Of a DNA stretch of 64,000 bases, positions 2,235 through 64,000 are shown piece after piece. The notes below the pieces were generated by a model. That model was not told the origin of the DNA. It did not search any database and saw nothing but the letters and a program-made list of their open reading frames with translations. Position 1 is the first letter of the stretch, and every line of letters begins with the position of its first letter. Origin of the DNA: a virus (taxonomy: Duplodnaviria > Caudoviricetes); IMG/VR virus record IMGVR_UViG_2061766007_000586, positions 160,001 to 224,000 of that record; one strand, written 5' to 3'. A program made the translations under genes and the position numbers.

Positions 2235-4028
2235 ATGGAAAAACAAAACACCAAACCTAAATTGGAACACAATGTAATTGCAGGAGAAGAATTTAAGGAA
2301 GCAGTTGATGTAGTATTAACTGATTTACTTAATGTTCTTGCAGATCATTGTGGTCCTTATAAAGGAACAGCGATTTTAACAAATCCTGAAAATCCTTTAG
2401 CTGAACCCGTCTTTACTAAAGATGGTATTAATATTGTAGATAGTATTCGTTACAAGAATCCTGTCTATGATTTTATTCGCCAACAGATTGCTTATATGGG
2501 ATCTCGTGTAGATCGTGGAGCTGGTGATGGTACTACAAGTACTATGATTCTTATGGCTGCTATGATTCGTTATCTCTTCACTGTTAAAGAGGTTGCAGAT
2601 TATTCAGCTGCTGAATTGATTAGTACTTGGAATGAATTAGTTGATAGGATTGCTGCTCATTATAAACCTTACATTGATCGTGTTAAGAAGATCAATGATA
2701 GAAAACTGATTCGTTACATTGCTGGTTGTCAAGCATACACATCTTCTCATGGTGATCTTGAATTAGTTAAATGTATTGAAGAATTATTTGCTAGTTCACC
2801 TAAAGAAGTTTGGGATACTTTAACTGCTCAGCGTGCTGTGTATGAATCTGAGAAGAAATACAATCTTATCGTGAATAATGCAGAGTACACGTTAGATAAT
2901 GTTAGTATCTTCCCACGTACAGGTAATCAAGAATTTGGTACTCGTCATAGATACGATAACATTGACTGCTTGCTTTGGTATCACCTTAACCTTGGTGATG
3001 ATACACAGAAACCTCTGATTGATTTTATTGATGAGCGAATTAAGTCAACAGATGCTGAACCATTAGCCGTCATGTGCTGTAATGATTTAGACAATGTTAC
3101 AATGTCGCATTTCTACAATCTGTTTGCAGAGCATAAGAATTGTAAAGTTGTATTCATTACAGTTCCATTTGCTGATATGTCTGTTAATGATATTCAAGCA
3201 CTTGAAGCTATGCTTGTTGAAACTAAGAAAATCATTAATGCAAGAGAACGTTTAGAAACAAATCATTTAACTGATACTGTTAAACTTACGCTTGAATGCA
3301 AAAATGATAAGTGCAGAATTATTTCTGGTATTTTCAATAAGAGATTTACAGGAATCAATCCTCTTTATAAGAAAAAAGAATATCCTGGGTATAATAAATT
3401 TATCGAGAATATCAAGATTATTTTGAAGAAGGAAAAAGAAGATATTACGAGAAAGAACAATAAGCAGATTATTGCTTTTACTCGTATTCTTCATAAGCTT
3501 ATTTCTACGAAGGATGTTTCTTTTATCATTGGTGGCGCTGCATATGACAATGCGGCAGGTAGAGATGTTGCTATGGATTCTCTTCTTGCTACCAAGTGCT
3601 CATTAACACAGGGTTTTGTTGCAGGTCGTTTTGTAACATTAAATCATGTAATTGATGCAATAATGACATATACATTTACTATGGATGATAAAAAGAAACA
3701 ACAGTTATTTACTATCTTCCTTCATGCATTGATGGTTGGTATCAACAAGGTAAACGAATCACTTGGTGTCCTTGATAGAAAAGGAGTACTTCATGGTGAT
3801 TCTCCTGTTGATATTACACGCCTTAATGATCCATCCTATGCAATTCCAGCTGATCTTGAAACTGCTTTGAAAGAAAGAAAAGATTACTGTATTATTCAAC
3901 CTGCTATGACTGATATCACATTCCTCAAGAGATTTGGTGAATTAGGATTGAAGTTCTTGACAGCTAACAGTACAATCGCAGCTGGTCGTCAATGGGATAT
4001 TGAACATAAGGAAGACAGATATGGCTGA
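2235..4028 (+). CDS. groEL: GroEL-like (Cpn60) phage chaperonin
   Basis: Motifs CGPYKG, TKDGINIV, GAGDGTTS (ATP-binding), FIIGG and QGFVAG; 597 aa. Confidence 0.9.
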   Translation: MEKQNTKPKLEHNVIAGEEFKEAVDVVLTDLLNVLADHCGPYKGTAILTNPENPLAEPVFTKDGINIVDSIRYKNPVYDFIRQQIAYMGSRVDRGAGDGTTSTMILMAAMIRYLFTVKEVADYSAAELISTWNELVDRIAAHYKPYIDRVKKINDRKLIRYIAGCQAYTSSHGDLELVKCIEELFASSPKEVWDTLTAQRAVYESEKKYNLIVNNAEYTLDNVSIFPRTGNQEFGTRHRYDNIDCLLWYHLNLGDDTQKPLIDFIDERIKSTDAEPLAVMCCNDLDNVTMSHFYNLFAEHKNCKVVFITVPFADMSVNDIQALEAMLVETKKIINARERLETNHLTDTVKLTLECKNDKCRIISGIFNKRFTGINPLYKKKEYPGYNKFIENIKIILKKEKEDITRKNNKQIIAFTRILHKLISTKDVSFIIGGAAYDNAAGRDVAMDSLLATKCSLTQGFVAGRFVTLNHVIDAIMTYTFTMDDKKKQQLFTIFLHALMVGINKVNESLGVLDRKGVLHGDSPVDITRLNDPSYAIPADLETALKERKDYCIIQPAMTDITFLKRFGELGLKFLTANSTIAAGRQWDIEHKEDRYG

Positions 4029-4452
4029 TGTAACTGATGTAGTTGGTAAAGATTCAGTAAAGACTGTACAGACAGGTGATCGAATTAGTTTTTATGTATA
4101 CGACTCATCTGTAGAGATTACAGGAACTGTTCAGGCAGTTGCTAATTATGCAATTGCTAGATCAATGAATACTGATCTTGCTGCAAAACATGCAAAGATT
4201 CAATCAATTATTGCTGCAACTGGTGAAGTTCCAAATGAAGTAACAGATGAAACATTCTTCATTTTGGATACTGGTGGAACAAGACCTACGGTTGTTGCTA
4301 TGAGTTGGATTGTGAATGGAGTTGTTGAACATGTAGTTCAAGGATCGAATTACACAATCAAACTTATTAATTGTACTAAAGCAAAAGCTGAACTTGCTCT
4401 TGATATTTTACGTAGAGCAAATATTGCTTGTAGTTTAAGTATGCAGTATTAA
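4021..4452 (+). CDS. Conserved jumbo-phage hypothetical protein, possible SH3-like barrel
   Basis: ATG at 4021 after AAGGA; followed by a terminator hairpin. Confidence 0.55.
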   Translation: MADVTDVVGKDSVKTVQTGDRISFYVYDSSVEITGTVQAVANYAIARSMNTDLAAKHAKIQSIIAATGEVPNEVTDETFFILDTGGTRPTVVAMSWIVNGVVEHVVQGSNYTIKLINCTKAKAELALDILRRANIACSLSMQY

Positions 4453-4490: not shown

Positions 4491-5390
4491 TTACTTTATT
4501 TCATTAAAATAAGCAGCATGATAATTCTGCATTGTAAGAACAGAGTTCTTAATAGCCATCACAATTTGTGATATGAAGTGAATAGATTTTACTGCATCTT
4601 CATATCCATATTTTTGGATGCGTTTTGAAATTCCATATTTAATAGAAGATAAATCTTTGAGATGTTGATTTAATACAACATGATTCACTCTATCACTCAT
4701 TTCATTGATTTGGTTCACCTCTATTTCAGCACTTTCATTAGACTGATAAGTTGGTGACGGTAAATCGATAGAGGTATAGTCGTGTTCATGAATTTCTACA
4801 TGTCCTAACACCATGCTTAATTCATTATCTTCCATAAACTTATCATGAAGTTGCTGATAAGATAAATCTTCACAACCTAACTTACAAATACTTGTAAGAA
4901 TTTCATTGTAAGTAGTTGTTAAATTATCTATCGCATGATAATTATAAACAACTGTTTTACTATCAGGAATTTCATCCAAGGTTTTGTATTGCTTTTTGTT
5001 ATTTAGATCAGCAATACTACACTCCAGCATATTAAGTAATTCACGATTCAGATAGTCAGATGTTTTTGTATTAACTGTATGAATTTGGTTCACCAGATAT
5101 GTTGGACGATCATCGTCATTTAGCGTAGCATAGGTTTCTATGCTCTGACGAAGTATATCATCAGTCAAGCAAGATTCTTTTAAATTGATTGCACAATCAT
5201 CACAAAAAGAAATAGCTTTTCGAGTACCTTCAATCTTTTTGATGTATCCTTCTAAAGAACTATAACGTTTCAGTTCACGTGCAGAATGTAAAAGATCACT
5301 ACATTGTTCTTGAAGATGTAATTGATCTTCTTGAACCTCTGTATTGAAATGCATAGCCTGATTTAATAAATCAATGGTTGATTGTTTCAT
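4491..5390 (-). CDS. Putative virion head protein
   Basis: 299 aa, helical, with an S-L-E motif like phiKZ prohead-protease sites; structural gene cluster. Confidence 0.5.
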   Translation of the reverse strand: MKQSTIDLLNQAMHFNTEVQEDQLHLQEQCSDLLHSARELKRYSSLEGYIKKIEGTRKAISFCDDCAINLKESCLTDDILRQSIETYATLNDDDRPTYLVNQIHTVNTKTSDYLNRELLNMLECSIADLNNKKQYKTLDEIPDSKTVVYNYHAIDNLTTTYNEILTSICKLGCEDLSYQQLHDKFMEDNELSMVLGHVEIHEHDYTSIDLPSPTYQSNESAEIEVNQINEMSDRVNHVVLNQHLKDLSSIKYGISKRIQKYGYEDAVKSIHFISQIVMAIKNSVLTMQNYHAAYFNEIK

Positions 5391-9413: not shown

Positions 9414-10511
9414 TTATCTCTCGGCTACACAGCCAACACATTCACGTGGTTGTAAATACGTGTTGACACAAGTTATGAATTCCTGGCAGCAGAGGAATTG
9501 ATACGTGATAGAGGTATTAGACTTCCTAAACACAAAGCGATCGGAGAGATTCACTGTAGTGTTGGAAGGTAAGCATATCGCGTGGTTAAGGTTTAAGTCT
9601 CCGTAGCTTGCCACAGTTCTGGTGATGTCTTTTGCTAATGGTCCAGGTATTGCTTCTTTAGCCATGTCTATAATCCTGTTGAAGACGTCAGTCATACTGG
9701 TAGGAATACAGGATGTCCAGAAGAAGTTAGGATGTTTTAGCAGCATTTCTTCATCATAACTGATACAGAGTATGAACAGAAGCGTTTTAATATAATCTAC
9801 AATTTTGCTGAATTTTGTTCCACTGTCTTCATATGTCTCATTAAGAGCATAGATAGGACGTTTCACTTGTTTATCTCGATCGAGATTAAACAGCGGACGA
9901 TATAGGTCAATTACAGCACTGTAGAGAATATTGGTATAAGCTTCAAATTCTCCTTGACTTATAATGTAAGTCATACTTCCAGTCGTATTAGAACGATTAG
10001 GATTGAGAGGCATATCAATTCTACGAGCTATGTTAGAAACATAGTGAGAATTGATACTATTCGCAACAATCGTATCTCTCAGACTGTCTAAGACTTGCGT
10101 TTCTTTTGTAAATAAGTTGTAAGTTTTTAATTCCCTATTGAGAACTAACATTTCTTCAAAGAATGGTTTACACTGAGATGGAACAGCTAACATAACTGTT
10201 TCACTCAGTGATTTACCATTTCTTTTTGCTCTGACATTTTCGATCATGTCCAAGCATCTTTGTCTCTGGCAACTTAAGAAGAATTTCAAAATAGCATCAT
10301 TGTACTCAGTCATGAGCTGACCATATGCTTCTTTTGATAATCCTTGGGTGTTGATCCCATAAGTTTGAAAATAGATTTCAGCTAAGATGGGATCAACTAT
10401 AGGATAATTTCTTTTTAAGCAATTTAAGATAAACCATGAGCAAAGCAATGTAAATGGGCTGAAGAAACTTTCACAACCGTAAGGAGATCTACTATAATCC
10501 AGTTGGAGCAT
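9414..10511 (-). CDS. Putative phiKZ-like virion structural protein
   Basis: 365 aa with an AGGAGG RBS, in the head-gene operon. Confidence 0.55.
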   Translation of the reverse strand: MLQLDYSRSPYGCESFFSPFTLLCSWFILNCLKRNYPIVDPILAEIYFQTYGINTQGLSKEAYGQLMTEYNDAILKFFLSCQRQRCLDMIENVRAKRNGKSLSETVMLAVPSQCKPFFEEMLVLNRELKTYNLFTKETQVLDSLRDTIVANSINSHYVSNIARRIDMPLNPNRSNTTGSMTYIISQGEFEAYTNILYSAVIDLYRPLFNLDRDKQVKRPIYALNETYEDSGTKFSKIVDYIKTLLFILCISYDEEMLLKHPNFFWTSCIPTSMTDVFNRIIDMAKEAIPGPLAKDITRTVASYGDLNLNHAICLPSNTTVNLSDRFVFRKSNTSITYQFLCCQEFITCVNTYLQPRECVGCVAER

Positions 10512-63236: not shown

Positions 63237-63355
63237 GTTTCTCCTTATTAAAGTAAAGTGAATAAAATAAAAGTCCACTCTCCAATTAAGGAGAGTGGAC
63301 TAGGCTAATAAGACAATAAAGACAATAAGCTTTATTATCAGGAAGGGGTCAAATT

Positions 63356-63436: not shown

Positions 63437-63551
63437 TGGTGGGACAGGTTGGACTTGAACCAACGACATAGGCGTTATCAGCGCAAAATAGTTGCTGTTA
63501 GTATCCGAGACGGATACATTTTACTTGCTCTACCTTCTGAGCTACTGTCCC
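63437..63551 (-). tRNA. trnI: tRNA-Ile(GAT) interrupted by a 39-nt insert in the 5' strand of the anticodon stem
   Basis: Removing 63485-63523 gives a perfect 76-nt tRNA with AGGCG-CTGATAA-CGCCT. Confidence 0.85.
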
Positions 63552-63720: not shown

Positions 63721-63753
63721 ATATATTAAAGTAATATATACAGAAAAAAGAAA

Positions 63754-63863
63754 TGGCGGAATTGCTAGGATTAAATACCTAGATCTTCAAGCCACTGCAG
63801 TGTTCGACTTGACACTCTACATACTCTTATGGTGGTGGTCGAGTATATTTAAGCTACAATTCC
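63754..63863 (-). ncRNA. tRNA-like RNA with a hairpin inserted in the D-loop and an abnormal anticodon arm
   Basis: Acceptor GGAATTG/CAATTCC + G-CCA; T-arm CTAGG-TATTTAAT-CCTAG; ATACTC/GAGTAT hairpin in the D-loop; extended TCAAG/CTTGA arm. Confidence 0.65.
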
Positions 63864-64000
63864 AATAGTATATAAAGCCTTAATAAAAAAAATAAGGTGC
63901 TTTGAAAGCACCTTACTATGATTAAGCAGCAATCTTTTGAAGTGCTCTATCAGGAAATAAATCTAATTCTCCTGATATATATTTGTTATTACTGATATAT

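What the first reader, a model, noticed from the sequence alone, without database searches (positions are those of the whole stretch)
63437..63551. tRNA-Ile(GAU) with a precise 39-nt structured insert in the anticodon stem
Seen: the insert TAAAAT-GTATCCG-TCT-CGGATAC-TAACAGCAAC-TATTTT (plus-strand 63485-63523) splits the 5' anticodon-stem strand (AG|GCG, about position 28/29). Excising it yields a flawless 76-nt tRNA. The insert folds on itself: AAAAT/ATTTT closes a 7-bp hairpin plus an unpaired AACAGCAAC. Known: bacterial tRNA introns are large self-splicing introns, and short protein-spliced introns are archaeal/eukaryotic, mostly at 37/38. Inference: this is either a non-canonical short intron needing an unknown nuclease and ligase, or a retained protein-binding appendage that could shield or bait anticodon nucleases.
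Basis: partly seen in the sequence, partly recalled or inferred. Interest (0 to 1): 0.85.

Follow-up and report, generated by a model that had tools for sequence, protein, structure and literature searches.

The report
tRNA-shaped RNA with Ro60-type handle
This giant rumen phage encodes a complete isoleucine-tRNA shape with a conserved 39-base side arm in its anticodon stem. The same "hairpin + ACAGCAA" arm marks small RNAs encoded beside a Ro60-like ring protein in many phages, so it is most likely that protein's partner RNA rather than an intron-bearing tRNA.

Summary
The minus strand of 63437-63551 carries a 115-nt tRNA-like gene. Removing 63485-63523 leaves a perfect 76-nt tRNA-Ile(GAU). 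An independent sibling assembly keeps the insert, so it is not an artefact.

The insert is not idiosyncratic. It is a 7-bp hairpin, then UA, then ACAGCAA. That module recurs in other small RNAs of this phage, which cluster in front of a DUF2828 gene 6.1 kb away whose model folds like Ro60.

The link holds in both directions. In 80 unrelated DUF2828 phage loci, ACAGCAA followed by a T-loop occurs 100 times on the gene strand and once on the other. Of 87 loci found by the RNA motif alone, 79 carry the gene about 300 nt downstream.

About half of the distinct stem types found have our architecture: the arm splits the 5' strand of a true anticodon-like hairpin (U33, R37, A38 kept).

Splicing is disfavoured. 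The module also occurs outside tRNA frames. The insertion point varies, and some members have no anticodon loop. The phage shows no RtcB, RNA-ligase-family (PF09414) or splicing-endonuclease match. No insert-free allele of the commonest member was found.

Best reading: a retained protein handle on a Y-RNA-like tRNA mimic. Binding and function are inferred, not shown.

The scan has noted this family before, in at least 11 other genomes.

The parts
63437..63551 (-). Whole 115-nt tRNA-shaped RNA gene (Ile/GAU frame plus side arm), with an encoded 3' CCA at 63437-63439
   Evidence: Rfam tRNA 47.2 bits. Parsed by eye. Excision test.
63524..63551 (-). 5' part: acceptor 5' strand, D arm (GCUC/GAGC, loop AGAAGGUA with G18 G19), A26, and A27 G28 of the anticodon stem
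63485..63523 (-). 39-nt insert (side arm) between nucleotides 28 and 29
   Evidence: The sibling genome keeps it minus the first U.
63501..63517 (-). Module hairpin GUAUCCG-UCU-CGGAUAC (7 bp)
   Evidence: -8.5 kcal/mol, z -3.3. The homologous helix covaries across 35 family members.
63492..63500 (-). UA spacer plus the ACAGCAA motif. CAGCAA is invariant in the aligned set, though members were chosen for NCAGCAA.
63470..63484 (-). Distal anticodon hairpin GCG-CUGAUAA-CGC plus C42 U43. The anticodon GAU is at 63477-63479. U33, A37 and A38 are canonical.
63440..63469 (-). Variable loop AUGUC, T arm (GUUGG UUCAAGU CCAAC), acceptor 3' strand and discriminator A73
63272..63301 (-). Intrinsic-terminator-like hairpin that closes the tRNA transcription unit (tRNA-like, Cys, Met, Ile*, Val)
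63891..63917 (-). Terminator-like hairpin of the preceding unit. It bounds the tRNA unit on its 5' side.

Best explanation
The gene makes a stable tRNA-shaped RNA that keeps its 39-nt insert. The insert is a protein-binding handle: a 7-bp hairpin, a 2-nt spacer and single-stranded ACAGCAA. It branches from the 5' strand of the anticodon stem, and the rest folds as a normal L-shaped tRNA with an authentic-looking Ile anticodon loop.

The RNA is co-transcribed with the neighbouring tRNAs. It is probably cut out by the tRNA-processing enzymes RNase P and a 3' end nuclease.

The handle is bound by the phage's Ro60-fold DUF2828/vWA protein, encoded 6.1 kb upstream on the same strand. Together they form a Y-RNA-like particle. 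In that particle the tRNA body would be the effector or bait module, standing in for a tRNA towards host tRNA-binding or tRNA-cutting factors. The likely setting is RNA repair or counter-defence.

Shown here:
- The anatomy of the gene.
- Conservation and covariation of the handle.
- The two-way genomic linkage between handle and DUF2828.
- The Ro60 fold of the protein model.
- Conservation of the anticodon-loop signature.

Inferred:
- Physical binding of the handle to DUF2828.
- Retention of the insert in the mature RNA.
- The biological role.
For: 1. The same module recurs in this genome. A Thr(AGU)-like tRNA frame carries it at the same 28/29 position, and its insert is 71% identical to ours. 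The 135-nt RNA carries a variant (GCCGCAA), and stand-alone RNAs and the leader just upstream of the DUF2828 gene also carry it.

2. In 80 unrelated IMG/VR loci chosen only for a DUF2828 homologue, exact ACAGCAA followed by a T-loop occurs 100 times on the gene strand and once on the other. 89 of those 100 have a hairpin of at least 6 of 7 pairs just upstream. The background hairpin rate on the opposite strand is 14%.

3. The reverse search agrees. Of 87 loci found by the RNA motif alone, 79 carry a DUF2828 homologue on the same strand, a median 300 nt downstream. Six of the 8 misses are truncated loci.

4. The hairpin covaries: 6 of 7 pairs show changes on both sides, and 0 of 500 shuffles reach the observed score. 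Our unusual apex (CCG..CGG instead of CAU..GUG) is a compensated variant.

5. The DUF2828 model (pLDDT 83) has 12 Ro60/TROVE chains as its 12 matches at Foldseek E of at most 0.001. The best is E 4.6e-7, with TM up to 0.57 over the full length.

6. The split-stem architecture is a family trait. 22 of 33 distinct stem types reach 5 of 5 pairs, against 4.8% in cross-member controls.

7. The RNA, insert included, is more conserved between the two sibling genomes than its surroundings. It has 1 substitution and 1 indel in 115 nt. The 511-nt block that contains it is 88.5% identical.

8. Precedent exists in the literature. Bacterial and phage Ro60 proteins pair with tRNA-mimicking Y RNAs encoded beside them (PMC4201824, PMC12135203). 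The Ro60-like gp130 of the Felixounavirus Bas63 counters the Ppl defence system, and its authors suggested that some adjacent 'tRNA genes' are its Y RNAs (10.1101/2024.10.10.617714).
Against: - No binding or expression data exist for this RNA.
- It lies 6.1 kb downstream of the DUF2828 gene. The usual position is 233-899 nt upstream.
- Its hairpin apex departs from the family consensus. If the protein reads the apex, this copy might not bind.
- The tRNA part is flawless: all tertiary pairs, U33, A37, A38, A73 and CCA are present. A mere tether does not obviously need that, so it keeps a decoding role conceivable.
- In the Bas63 study, gp130 alone, from a plasmid or placed in T7, countered Ppl. 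That activity therefore does not need phage-encoded partner RNAs.
- The free-energy minimum fold does not contain the split anticodon stem: -36.2 versus -30.2 kcal/mol for the constrained cloverleaf.
Confidence: 0.66

Rival explanations
1. Short protein-dependent intron. A nuclease cuts at 28|29 on both sides of the insert and a ligase (for example host RtcB) joins the halves. This yields a decoding tRNA-Ile(GAU), and the released arm may then serve as a small handle RNA.
For: - Excision is exact and gives a perfect tRNA.
- This is the only Ile(GAU) gene ARAGORN finds in the phage.
- 15 of 16 split-type family members keep U33, R37 and A38 with 7-nt loops.
- In 33 of 37 loci, no ordinary tRNA with the same anticodon lies within 10 kb. 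That is also roughly what chance would give.
- An earlier scan note reports RtcB next to DUF2828 in another phage. I did not test that here.
Against: - There is no bulge-helix-bulge at the junctions. The 4 nt after each cut cannot pair with each other (read).
- The complete phage genome has no match to the splicing endonuclease, RtcB or the RNA-ligase family PF09414. The search for the T4 Rnl1 family was uninformative, because its control matched nothing anywhere.
- The same module sits in RNAs without any tRNA frame and in mRNA leaders.
- The insertion point varies from 27/28 to 30/31 by my parse, and one member also reads as 26/27 by eye. Some members replace the whole anticodon loop, or have a 9-nt loop or lack U33.
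- Across the family the handle motif stays constant while the tRNA frames and anticodons differ, the opposite of an intron.
- No insert-free allele or transcript of the commonest member exists in 241 million metagenome records or 2.9 million viral contigs.
- Near-identical relatives differ in the 'anticodon': GAU versus GGU.
Confidence: 0.1
2. A decoding tRNA-Ile that keeps the arm. It is aminoacylated and used on the ribosome, with the Ro60-like protein acting as an escort, shield or regulator.
For: The tRNA body, anticodon loop, A73 and CCA are canonical. The whole RNA is strongly conserved between the sibling genomes.
Against: - From general knowledge of ribosome structures, not tested here: the P-site 16S rRNA and protein contacts run along base pairs 29-41 and 30-40. 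A 39-nt branch at 28/29 should clash with them.
- No natural decoding tRNA with an extra arm in the anticodon stem is known to me.
- Relatives with the same arm have degenerate loops, and some have none.
Confidence: 0.07
3. Anticodon-nuclease decoy. The particle displays authentic anticodon arms (here Ile, elsewhere Val, Thr, Phe, Asn, Lys, His) to soak up or trap host tRNA-cutting defence enzymes. This is a specific functional version of the best explanation.
For: - The anticodon-loop signature is conserved although many members cannot decode.
- One phage carries several members with different anticodon loops.
- The Ro60-like gp130 of Bas63 is a counter-defence protein (10.1101/2024.10.10.617714).
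Against: - No nuclease target is known.
- Ppl, the one defence linked to the protein, was proposed to act on DNA.
- gp130 works without phage RNAs.
- The anticodons seen look like an ordinary tRNA repertoire rather than known nuclease targets.
Confidence: 0.12
4. An inert relic: a tRNA gene disabled by an insertion, or a decaying duplicate, with no function.
For: Default tRNA finders skip the gene. A relative whose DUF2828 protein is 62% identical lacks it at the syntenic Met-Val position.
Against: - The tRNA body has no defect.
- The insert matches a conserved functional module and is maintained in the sibling genome. The 115-nt RNA shows 1 substitution, where about 7 would be expected at the divergence of the rest of the block.
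- It is embedded in a tRNA operon with its own terminator.
Confidence: 0.05

Closest known systems
YrlA-type Y RNAs with Ro60/Rsr (Rfam RF02553; Chen et al. 2014, PMC4201824)
   Same: - A small RNA encoded near the gene for a Ro60-fold ring protein with a vWA domain.
- It contains a tRNA mimic with D and T arms.
- Some members are processed by RNase P and receive CCA.
- It is found in bacteria and phages.
   Different: - The protein here is DUF2828, with no match to the TROVE Pfam model. The similarity is by fold only.
- The RNA scores 20.8-23.9 bits against a YrlA threshold of 69.
- YrlA is permuted: its ends form the Ro-binding stem, and most members lack an anticodon arm.
- Here the RNA has normal tRNA topology and a complete anticodon arm. 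The binding module is a side branch with a different signature (hairpin + ACAGCAA).
phiRo60 with Yrl1/Yrl2 of Thermus phage phiLo (PMC12135203; PDB 9KOP, 9L5Y)
   Same: A phage-encoded Ro60-fold protein with partner RNAs encoded beside it. It was shown to bind those RNAs and to recruit host PNPase. Both structures are among the top structural matches of our DUF2828 model.
   Different: Those RNAs are stem-bulge-stem Y RNAs with a CGAA motif. They are not tRNA frames and have no ACAGCAA.
Bas63 gp130, a Ro60-like counter of the Ppl defence system (bioRxiv 10.1101/2024.10.10.617714)
   Same: - A Ro60-like protein encoded directly upstream of a tRNA array in a Felixounavirus.
- FelixO1 ORF42, in the same position, is a DUF2828 homologue of our protein at 30.5% identity. 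Four stem-ACAGCAA elements lie within its tRNA array.
- The authors guessed that some of the 'tRNAs' are Y RNAs.
   Different: - No partner RNA was identified or tested there, and the protein alone sufficed against Ppl.
- I did not verify directly that gp130 is the FelixO1 ORF42 orthologue.
Class I RNAs of dictyostelid amoebae (Rfam RF01414; Kjellin et al. 2021, PMC7919456)
   Same: The signature is the same: a 6-bp stem followed by CCUUACAGCAA. The stand-alone handle RNAs of this phage align end to end with the model, including the 3' CUG.
   Different: - Scores are 19.6-25.3 bits against a threshold of 41.5.
- Class I RNAs are 42-65-nt eukaryotic cytoplasmic RNAs with no tRNA frame.
- Their reported binding protein is an RRM protein.
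- The resemblance may be convergent.
Archaeal and eukaryal protein-spliced tRNA introns, including non-canonical positions
   Same: A short insert inside a tRNA gene whose removal restores a perfect cloverleaf. Archaeal introns can lie in the anticodon stem (established knowledge).
   Different: There is no bulge-helix-bulge, no splicing endonuclease and no RtcB in the phage. The host is unknown. The insert is a conserved module that also occurs outside tRNAs.
Bacterial group I introns in tRNA genes
   Same: They interrupt bacterial and phage tRNA genes.
   Different: Those are over 200 nt, lie in the anticodon loop and have a P1-P9 fold. Here the insert is 39 nt, lies in the stem, and Rfam finds no intron match.

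Membership tests
Canonical decoding tRNA-Ile(GAU) | Uninterrupted cloverleaf with a continuous 5-bp anticodon stem | tested here: not met
   39 nt interrupt the 5' strand at 28/29. ARAGORN at default settings does not call the gene.
Canonical decoding tRNA-Ile(GAU) | 7-nt anticodon loop with U33 and R37, tertiary pairs (U8-A14, G15-C48, G18/G19 with the T loop), A73 and CCA | tested here: met
   Read. Rfam tRNA scores 47.2 bits against a threshold of 29.
Canonical decoding tRNA-Ile(GAU) | Aminoacylation and use in translation | not testable with these tools
   This needs an acid-gel northern, a charging assay or polysome analysis.
Protein-spliced (BHB) tRNA intron | Bulge-helix-bulge motif at the two splice sites | tested here: not met
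   The 4 nt following the two cut sites (AAAA/AAAU versus GCGC/CGCU) cannot form the central helix. Both junctions sit at the base of one arm.
Protein-spliced (BHB) tRNA intron | Splicing endonuclease and RNA ligase available | tested here: not met
   PF01974, PF01139 (RtcB) and PF09414 have no match in the complete 318.6-kb phage genome. The PF09511 search was uninformative. The host genome is unknown.
Protein-spliced (BHB) tRNA intron | Spliced product exists | tested here: inconclusive
   No contig in the viral or metagenome collections contains the 3' part of this RNA at all. The spliced form of the commonest family member is absent from both. Mature tRNAs are rarely assembled, so this is weak evidence.
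Group I intron in a tRNA gene | Self-splicing fold of over 200 nt, sited in the anticodon loop | tested here: not met
   The insert is 39 nt and lies in the stem. Rfam shows no intron match at E up to 1.
YrlA (Rfam RF02553) | Score at or above the family threshold of 69 bits | tested here: not met
   23.9 and 20.8 bits, covering only the tRNA-like parts.
YrlA (Rfam RF02553) | Encoded beside a TROVE-domain Ro60 orthologue | tested here: not met
   The genome has no TROVE Pfam match. The neighbour is DUF2828, which is Ro60-like by fold only.
DUF2828-associated stem-ACAGCAA RNAs (undescribed family, defined here) | 7-bp helix, a 1-3-nt spacer, then (N)CAGCAA | tested here: met
   GUAUCCG-UCU-CGGAUAC-UA-ACAGCAA. 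The apex differs from the consensus through compensated changes.
DUF2828-associated stem-ACAGCAA RNAs (undescribed family, defined here) | In the tRNA-framed subclass, a T loop 26-39 nt after the motif and the module placed in the 5' strand of the anticodon stem | tested here: met
   The T loop lies 31 nt after the motif, and the stem is split 2+3.
DUF2828-associated stem-ACAGCAA RNAs (undescribed family, defined here) | Same strand as a DUF2828 gene and close to it | tested here: met
   It is on the same strand, 6.1 kb downstream of the gene. That is farther than the usual 233-899 nt upstream. Other loci also have copies up to about 2 kb downstream of the gene's end.
DUF2828-associated stem-ACAGCAA RNAs (undescribed family, defined here) | Physical binding to the DUF2828 protein | not testable with these tools
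   The complex predictor takes protein chains only. This needs EMSA or RIP.

The most novel reading that the evidence does not exclude
These are genuine, working tRNAs of a new kind. Either a bacterial-world, protein-dependent tRNA splicing system removes the handle as its intron, with the Ro60-like ring as the recognition factor. Or they are decoding tRNAs that carry a protein-docking arm, which lets the phage switch its own tRNAs on, off or out of reach of host anticodon nucleases.
Probability: 0.15. Interest if true: 0.92.

Novelty: new variant of a known kind. Interest (0 to 1): 0.66.

Why it matters
Ro60/Y-RNA particles are known, but their bacterial and phage roles are poorly understood. 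The known tRNA-mimicking Y RNAs are permuted, and most lack an anticodon arm.

Here a very large phage protein family pairs with RNAs that are complete tRNA shapes, anticodon loop included, with a conserved docking arm grafted into the anticodon stem.
- The family has more than 6,000 homologues in the metagenome protein search.
- It occurs in 710 cultured-phage records, including FelixO1, Listeria, Staphylococcus, Enterococcus and mycobacteriophages.
- It is labelled only DUF2828 or 'RNA-binding protein'.

The RNA family matches no Rfam family other than tRNA. I did not find it described in the papers I could search.

One member of the protein family is an experimentally shown counter-defence factor. 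The RNAs therefore give a concrete handle for asking how phages use tRNA mimicry against host immunity, and tractable phages are available to test it.

There is also a practical point for annotation. tRNA finders skip such genes, or call them pseudo-tRNAs or intron-bearing tRNAs.

Tried and rejected
**Searches for orthologues of this RNA**
- A degenerate pattern for the Ile tRNA with a variable gap found nothing in viral contigs.
- The exact 34-nt 3'-part pattern found nothing in viral or metagenome contigs.
- Single-protein locus searches with a flanking ORF and with DUF2828 found nothing.
- Only the identity look-up of a 96% identical protein gave the sibling genome.

**Assembly artefact:** rejected, because the sibling assembly keeps the insert.

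**Closing helix AAAAU/AUUUU:** not supported by folding or by the family comparison. The ends of the insert are A-rich and U-rich throughout the family, but this is not distinguishable from composition.

**Module transplanted into a true tRNA-Ile gene:** not supported. Compared with the Thr(AGU)-like paralogue, the insert is 71% identical and the tRNA parts 67-69%, so whole-unit duplication is as likely.

**Redundancy test:** whether phages also carry a normal tRNA with the same anticodon gave 4 of 37, about what chance would give, so it is uninformative.

**Conserved neighbour genes:** a search for a nuclease or ligase around DUF2828 in 82 loci found only lineage-specific hypothetical proteins, a resolvase and homing endonucleases.

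**ACAGCAA counts in the whole genome** are not informative alone: 89 copies against about 39 expected, mostly in coding DNA.

**Other checks**
- A profile search of PDB sequences with DUF2828 did not find Ro60. Only the fold comparison did.
- ARAGORN with introns allowed mis-parses this gene as Asn(GUU) with a 25-nt intron.
- I did not use the complex predictor, which takes proteins only.
Full report
**What is there.** The window is bases 160001-224000 of a 318,604-bp phage genome that is rated complete.

On the minus strand, 63551-63437 reads as follows:
- GGGACAG UA GCUC AGAAGGUA GAGC A AG
- then 39 nt: UAAAAU GUAUCCG UCU CGGAUAC UA ACAGCAA C UAUUUU
- then GCG CUGAUAA CGCCU AUGUC GUUGG UUCAAGU CCAAC CUGUCCC A CCA

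Rfam's tRNA model spans the gene at 47.2 bits and skips 54 nt. ARAGORN at default settings misses it. After cutting out 63523-63485, ARAGORN calls a perfect 76-nt tRNA-Ile(GAU). All usual tertiary partners, U33, A37, A38, A73 and CCA are present.

The split at 28/29 is unambiguous. The 7-bp hairpin is stable (-8.5 kcal/mol, z -3.3).

The gene sits in a compact tRNA unit: an odd tRNA-like RNA, then Cys, Met, this RNA and Val. The unit is bounded by two terminator-like hairpins.

**Not an artefact, and under constraint.** A 318,677-bp contig from a different sample encodes a DUF2828 protein that is 96% identical. It carries the same gene with the insert. The only differences are loss of the first, unpaired U of the insert and an A-to-G change in the T loop.

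The surrounding 511-nt block is 88.5% identical between the two genomes. The RNA, insert included, is therefore at least as constrained as its tRNA neighbours.

A more distant relative, whose DUF2828 protein is 62% identical, has Met directly followed by Val and no Ile gene there.

**The insert is a copy of a module.** An earlier-scan note pointed to a DUF2828 gene nearby, and I checked it. The 504-aa protein at genome 229679-231193 lies on the same strand, 6.1 kb upstream of our RNA. It matches DUF2828 and DUF7788, with weak vWA hits.

The roughly 770 nt in front of the gene hold several small RNAs:
- Three carry exact ACAGCAA directly after a helix strand.
- Others carry close variants (ACUGCAA, CCAGCAA, GCCGCAA).
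- One is a Thr(AGU)-like tRNA frame, split at exactly 28/29 by a 41-nt insert. That insert is 71% identical to ours and has the same unusual hairpin apex.
- Others have no tRNA frame. In these the helix is formed by the two ends of the RNA, with ACAGCAA just inside.
- One copy lies in the leader that runs into the gene's ribosome-binding site.

**The link to DUF2828 holds in both directions.** I collected 80 IMG/VR loci solely because they encode a DUF2828 homologue at 52-58% identity to ours.
- Exact ACAGCAA followed by a T loop within 90 nt occurs 100 times on the gene's strand and once on the other.
- 89 of those 100 have a hairpin of at least 6 of 7 pairs immediately upstream.
- For ACAGCAA sites on the opposite strand the hairpin rate is 14%.

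For the reverse test I scanned all viral contigs with the RNA motif alone. This gave 87 loci:
- 79 have a DUF2828 homologue, always on the same strand, starting a median 300 nt (233-899) downstream.
- Six of the 8 without one end within 600 nt of the motif.

The helix covaries. Six of 7 pairs change on both sides, no shuffle reaches the observed score, and slid controls pair at 34-43% against 97%. The sequences in that alignment were preselected for pairing, so the unbiased counts are the fairer measure.

Our copy's apex (C-G and G-C where the consensus has A-U and U-G) is a compensated variant.

**The architecture is general.** I extracted 67 distinct tRNA-framed members and could parse 59 of them.
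- In 46 of the 59, a full 5-bp anticodon-type stem can be read. It is usually split by the module into 2+3 (28/29, as here) or 3+2 (29/30), and sometimes 1+4 or 4+1.
- In the rest the stem is intact and the module replaces the loop.
- Among 33 distinct stem types, 22 reach 5 of 5 pairs, against 4.8% when 5' and 3' parts of different members are combined.
- Among the 16 distinct split types, the hairpin distal to the module keeps the tRNA anticodon-loop signature: U33 in 15, a purine at 37 in 15 and A38 in 15.
- The loops read Val (UAC, the commonest), Thr (UGU, GGU), Ile (GAU), Phe (GAA), Asn (GUU), Lys (UUU), His (GUG) and others.

Some members cannot decode. Some have 9-nt loops, some have no U33, and some have no anticodon hairpin at all. 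Two near-identical relatives differ in the 'anticodon', GAU against GGU.

About half of the distinct stem types in this RNA family have that form.

**Why not an intron.**
- The junctions cannot form a bulge-helix-bulge.
- Rfam finds no intron family there.
- The complete phage genome has no match to the splicing endonuclease, RtcB or the RNA-ligase family PF09414. The T4 Rnl1 search was uninformative, because its control matched nothing anywhere.
- The same module occurs where there is nothing to splice: stand-alone RNAs, mRNA leaders and the spacers of FelixO1's tRNA array.
- The insertion point drifts.
- Across the family the handle motif stays constant while the tRNA frames and anticodons differ.
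- The insert-free form of the commonest member is absent from 241 million metagenome records and 2.9 million viral contigs.

None of this excludes a host nuclease and ligase acting on the split-stem members, so I leave about 10% for splicing.

**The protein.** An AlphaFold model built on 30 homologues (pLDDT 83, pTM 0.82) has 12 Ro60/TROVE chains as its 12 matches at Foldseek E of at most 0.001.
- They include Xenopus and human Ro60, Deinococcus Rsr and the Ro60 of Thermus phage phiLo.
- The best E-value is 4.6e-7, and TM-scores reach 0.57 over the whole length.
- vWA domains follow below them.

Sequence methods do not see this: the TROVE Pfam model has no match in the genome, and a profile search of PDB sequences does not find Ro60.

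The family is large. The metagenome protein search returned 6,040 homologues at E of at most 1e-10. 710 cultured-phage records carry one, annotated 'RNA-binding protein', 'Ro-like RNA binding protein' or hypothetical.

In FelixO1 the gene sits directly before the tRNA array, and four stem-ACAGCAA elements lie between those tRNAs. Mycobacteriophage Nicholasp3 has two exact stem-ACAGCAA elements and an ACAGUAA variant after its gene. Neither locus matches Rfam YrlA.

**Literature.**
- Bacterial and phage Ro60 orthologues pair with Y RNAs encoded beside them, and these contain a tRNA-like domain (PMC4201824).
- The Ro60 of phage phiLo binds two upstream Y-like RNAs and recruits host PNPase (PMC12135203).
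- In the Felixounavirus Bas63, the Ro60-like gp130 lies directly upstream of the tRNA genes and counters the Ppl defence system. The authors guessed that some of those 'tRNAs' are its Y RNAs. However, gp130 alone rescued T7 on Ppl strains (10.1101/2024.10.10.617714).
- My searches found no description of the ACAGCAA RNAs or of DUF2828 as their partner.

Following a lead from an earlier-scan note, I confirmed a resemblance to dictyostelid Class I RNAs. The Rfam consensus is a 6-bp terminal stem followed by CCUUACAGCAA. The stand-alone handle RNAs align to it end to end at 19.6-25.3 bits, well below its threshold.

**How it most likely works.**

Shown:
- A conserved, covarying handle embedded in a complete tRNA shape.
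- Tight two-way genomic linkage to a protein whose model has a Ro60 fold.

Inferred:
- The RNA is released from the tRNA transcript by the tRNA-processing enzymes.
- It keeps its arm and is bound through the arm by the DUF2828 ring.
- It presents a tRNA body and anticodon loop to some host factor, as Y RNAs present their effector module.

The conserved anticodon-loop signature suggests that the partner reads anticodon loops. Candidates are a nuclease, a synthetase or a modification enzyme. That makes a decoy or RNA-repair role in counter-defence the most attractive specific version, but it is untested.

**Caveats for this particular copy.**
- It lies unusually far from the gene.
- It has a variant apex.
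- It is so perfect a tRNA that a decoding role, after excision or even with the arm, cannot be dismissed.

**Novelty.** In kind this is a Ro60/Y-RNA-type system. It has a different protein family, a different RNA signature and a new RNA architecture: a normal-topology tRNA, anticodon arm included, with a docking arm in the anticodon stem. I rate it a new variant of a known kind. The scan has met the same family in at least 11 other genomes.

Noticed in passing
window 63752-63862 (minus strand): Another CCA-ending tRNA-framed RNA sits at the head of the same transcription unit. It has a 7-bp acceptor stem, a degenerate T loop (UAUUUAA), and a long insert containing a CACUGCAGUG hairpin but no ACAGCAA. 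It is conserved in the relative L004 (17776-17880), so it is probably a functional RNA of a different kind.
   Followed up: partly
L001:9595-9708 (minus strand; genome 231594-231707): A Thr(AGU)-like tRNA frame without CCA is split at the same 28/29 position by a 41-nt insert. It shares our variant hairpin apex, and its motif reads ACUGCAA. It is about 70% identical to the Ile RNA throughout, so it is a likely paralogue. The A34 anticodon is unusual for bacteria.
   Followed up: partly
L001:9773-9907 (minus strand; genome 231772-231906): A 135-nt CCA-ending tRNA frame has lost both elbow partners: its D loop is AAUUA with no GG, and its T loop is UGAAAAU. It carries a long arm with a GUGUCA/UGACAC helix and GCCGCAA. 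The fold is strongly non-random (z = -5.0).
   Followed up: partly
L001:9195-9330 and 9720-9770 (minus strand): Stand-alone handle RNAs and the DUF2828 mRNA leader carry the helix formed by distant strands, with ACAGCAA just inside. The leader copy runs into the ribosome-binding site, which suggests autoregulation of the protein by its own binding site. Two of the RNAs align end to end with the Rfam Dictyostelium Class I RNA model, at 19.6-19.8 bits.
   Followed up: partly
L173 (Salmonella phage FelixO1, NC_005282.1) 4185-4260, 4350-4430, 4800-4990: Four unannotated elements of the form CAGAAGACC-N3-4-ACAGCAA...GGUCUG lie in the spacers of the tRNA array, just downstream of the DUF2828 homologue ORF42. 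A tractable model phage therefore carries the system.
   Followed up: partly
L174 (Mycobacterium phage Nicholasp3, MF140422.1) 3450-3790: Three stem-ACAG(C/U)AA elements follow the 'Ro-like RNA binding protein' gene. One is fused to an Asn(GUU)-like anticodon hairpin and a T arm. None matches Rfam YrlA at E up to 0.1.
   Followed up: partly
genome 224500-224589 (L001:2501-2590, minus strand): ARAGORN calls a tRNA-Ser with anticodon ACU (A34) here and in the sibling genome, where relative L004 has GCU. Together with the AGU loop above, this is a second A34 in the phage.
   Followed up: no
window 63501-63517 (plus strand): On the opposite strand, the complement of the module hairpin followed by AUUUUACUUG scores as a terminator-like site. 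This is probably incidental.
   Followed up: no
L020:12466-12553 and L078:17472-17546: Some phages carry both an ordinary tRNA (Thr-UGU, Ile-GAU) and a handle-bearing RNA with the same anticodon loop. In L020 the two are directly adjacent.
   Followed up: no
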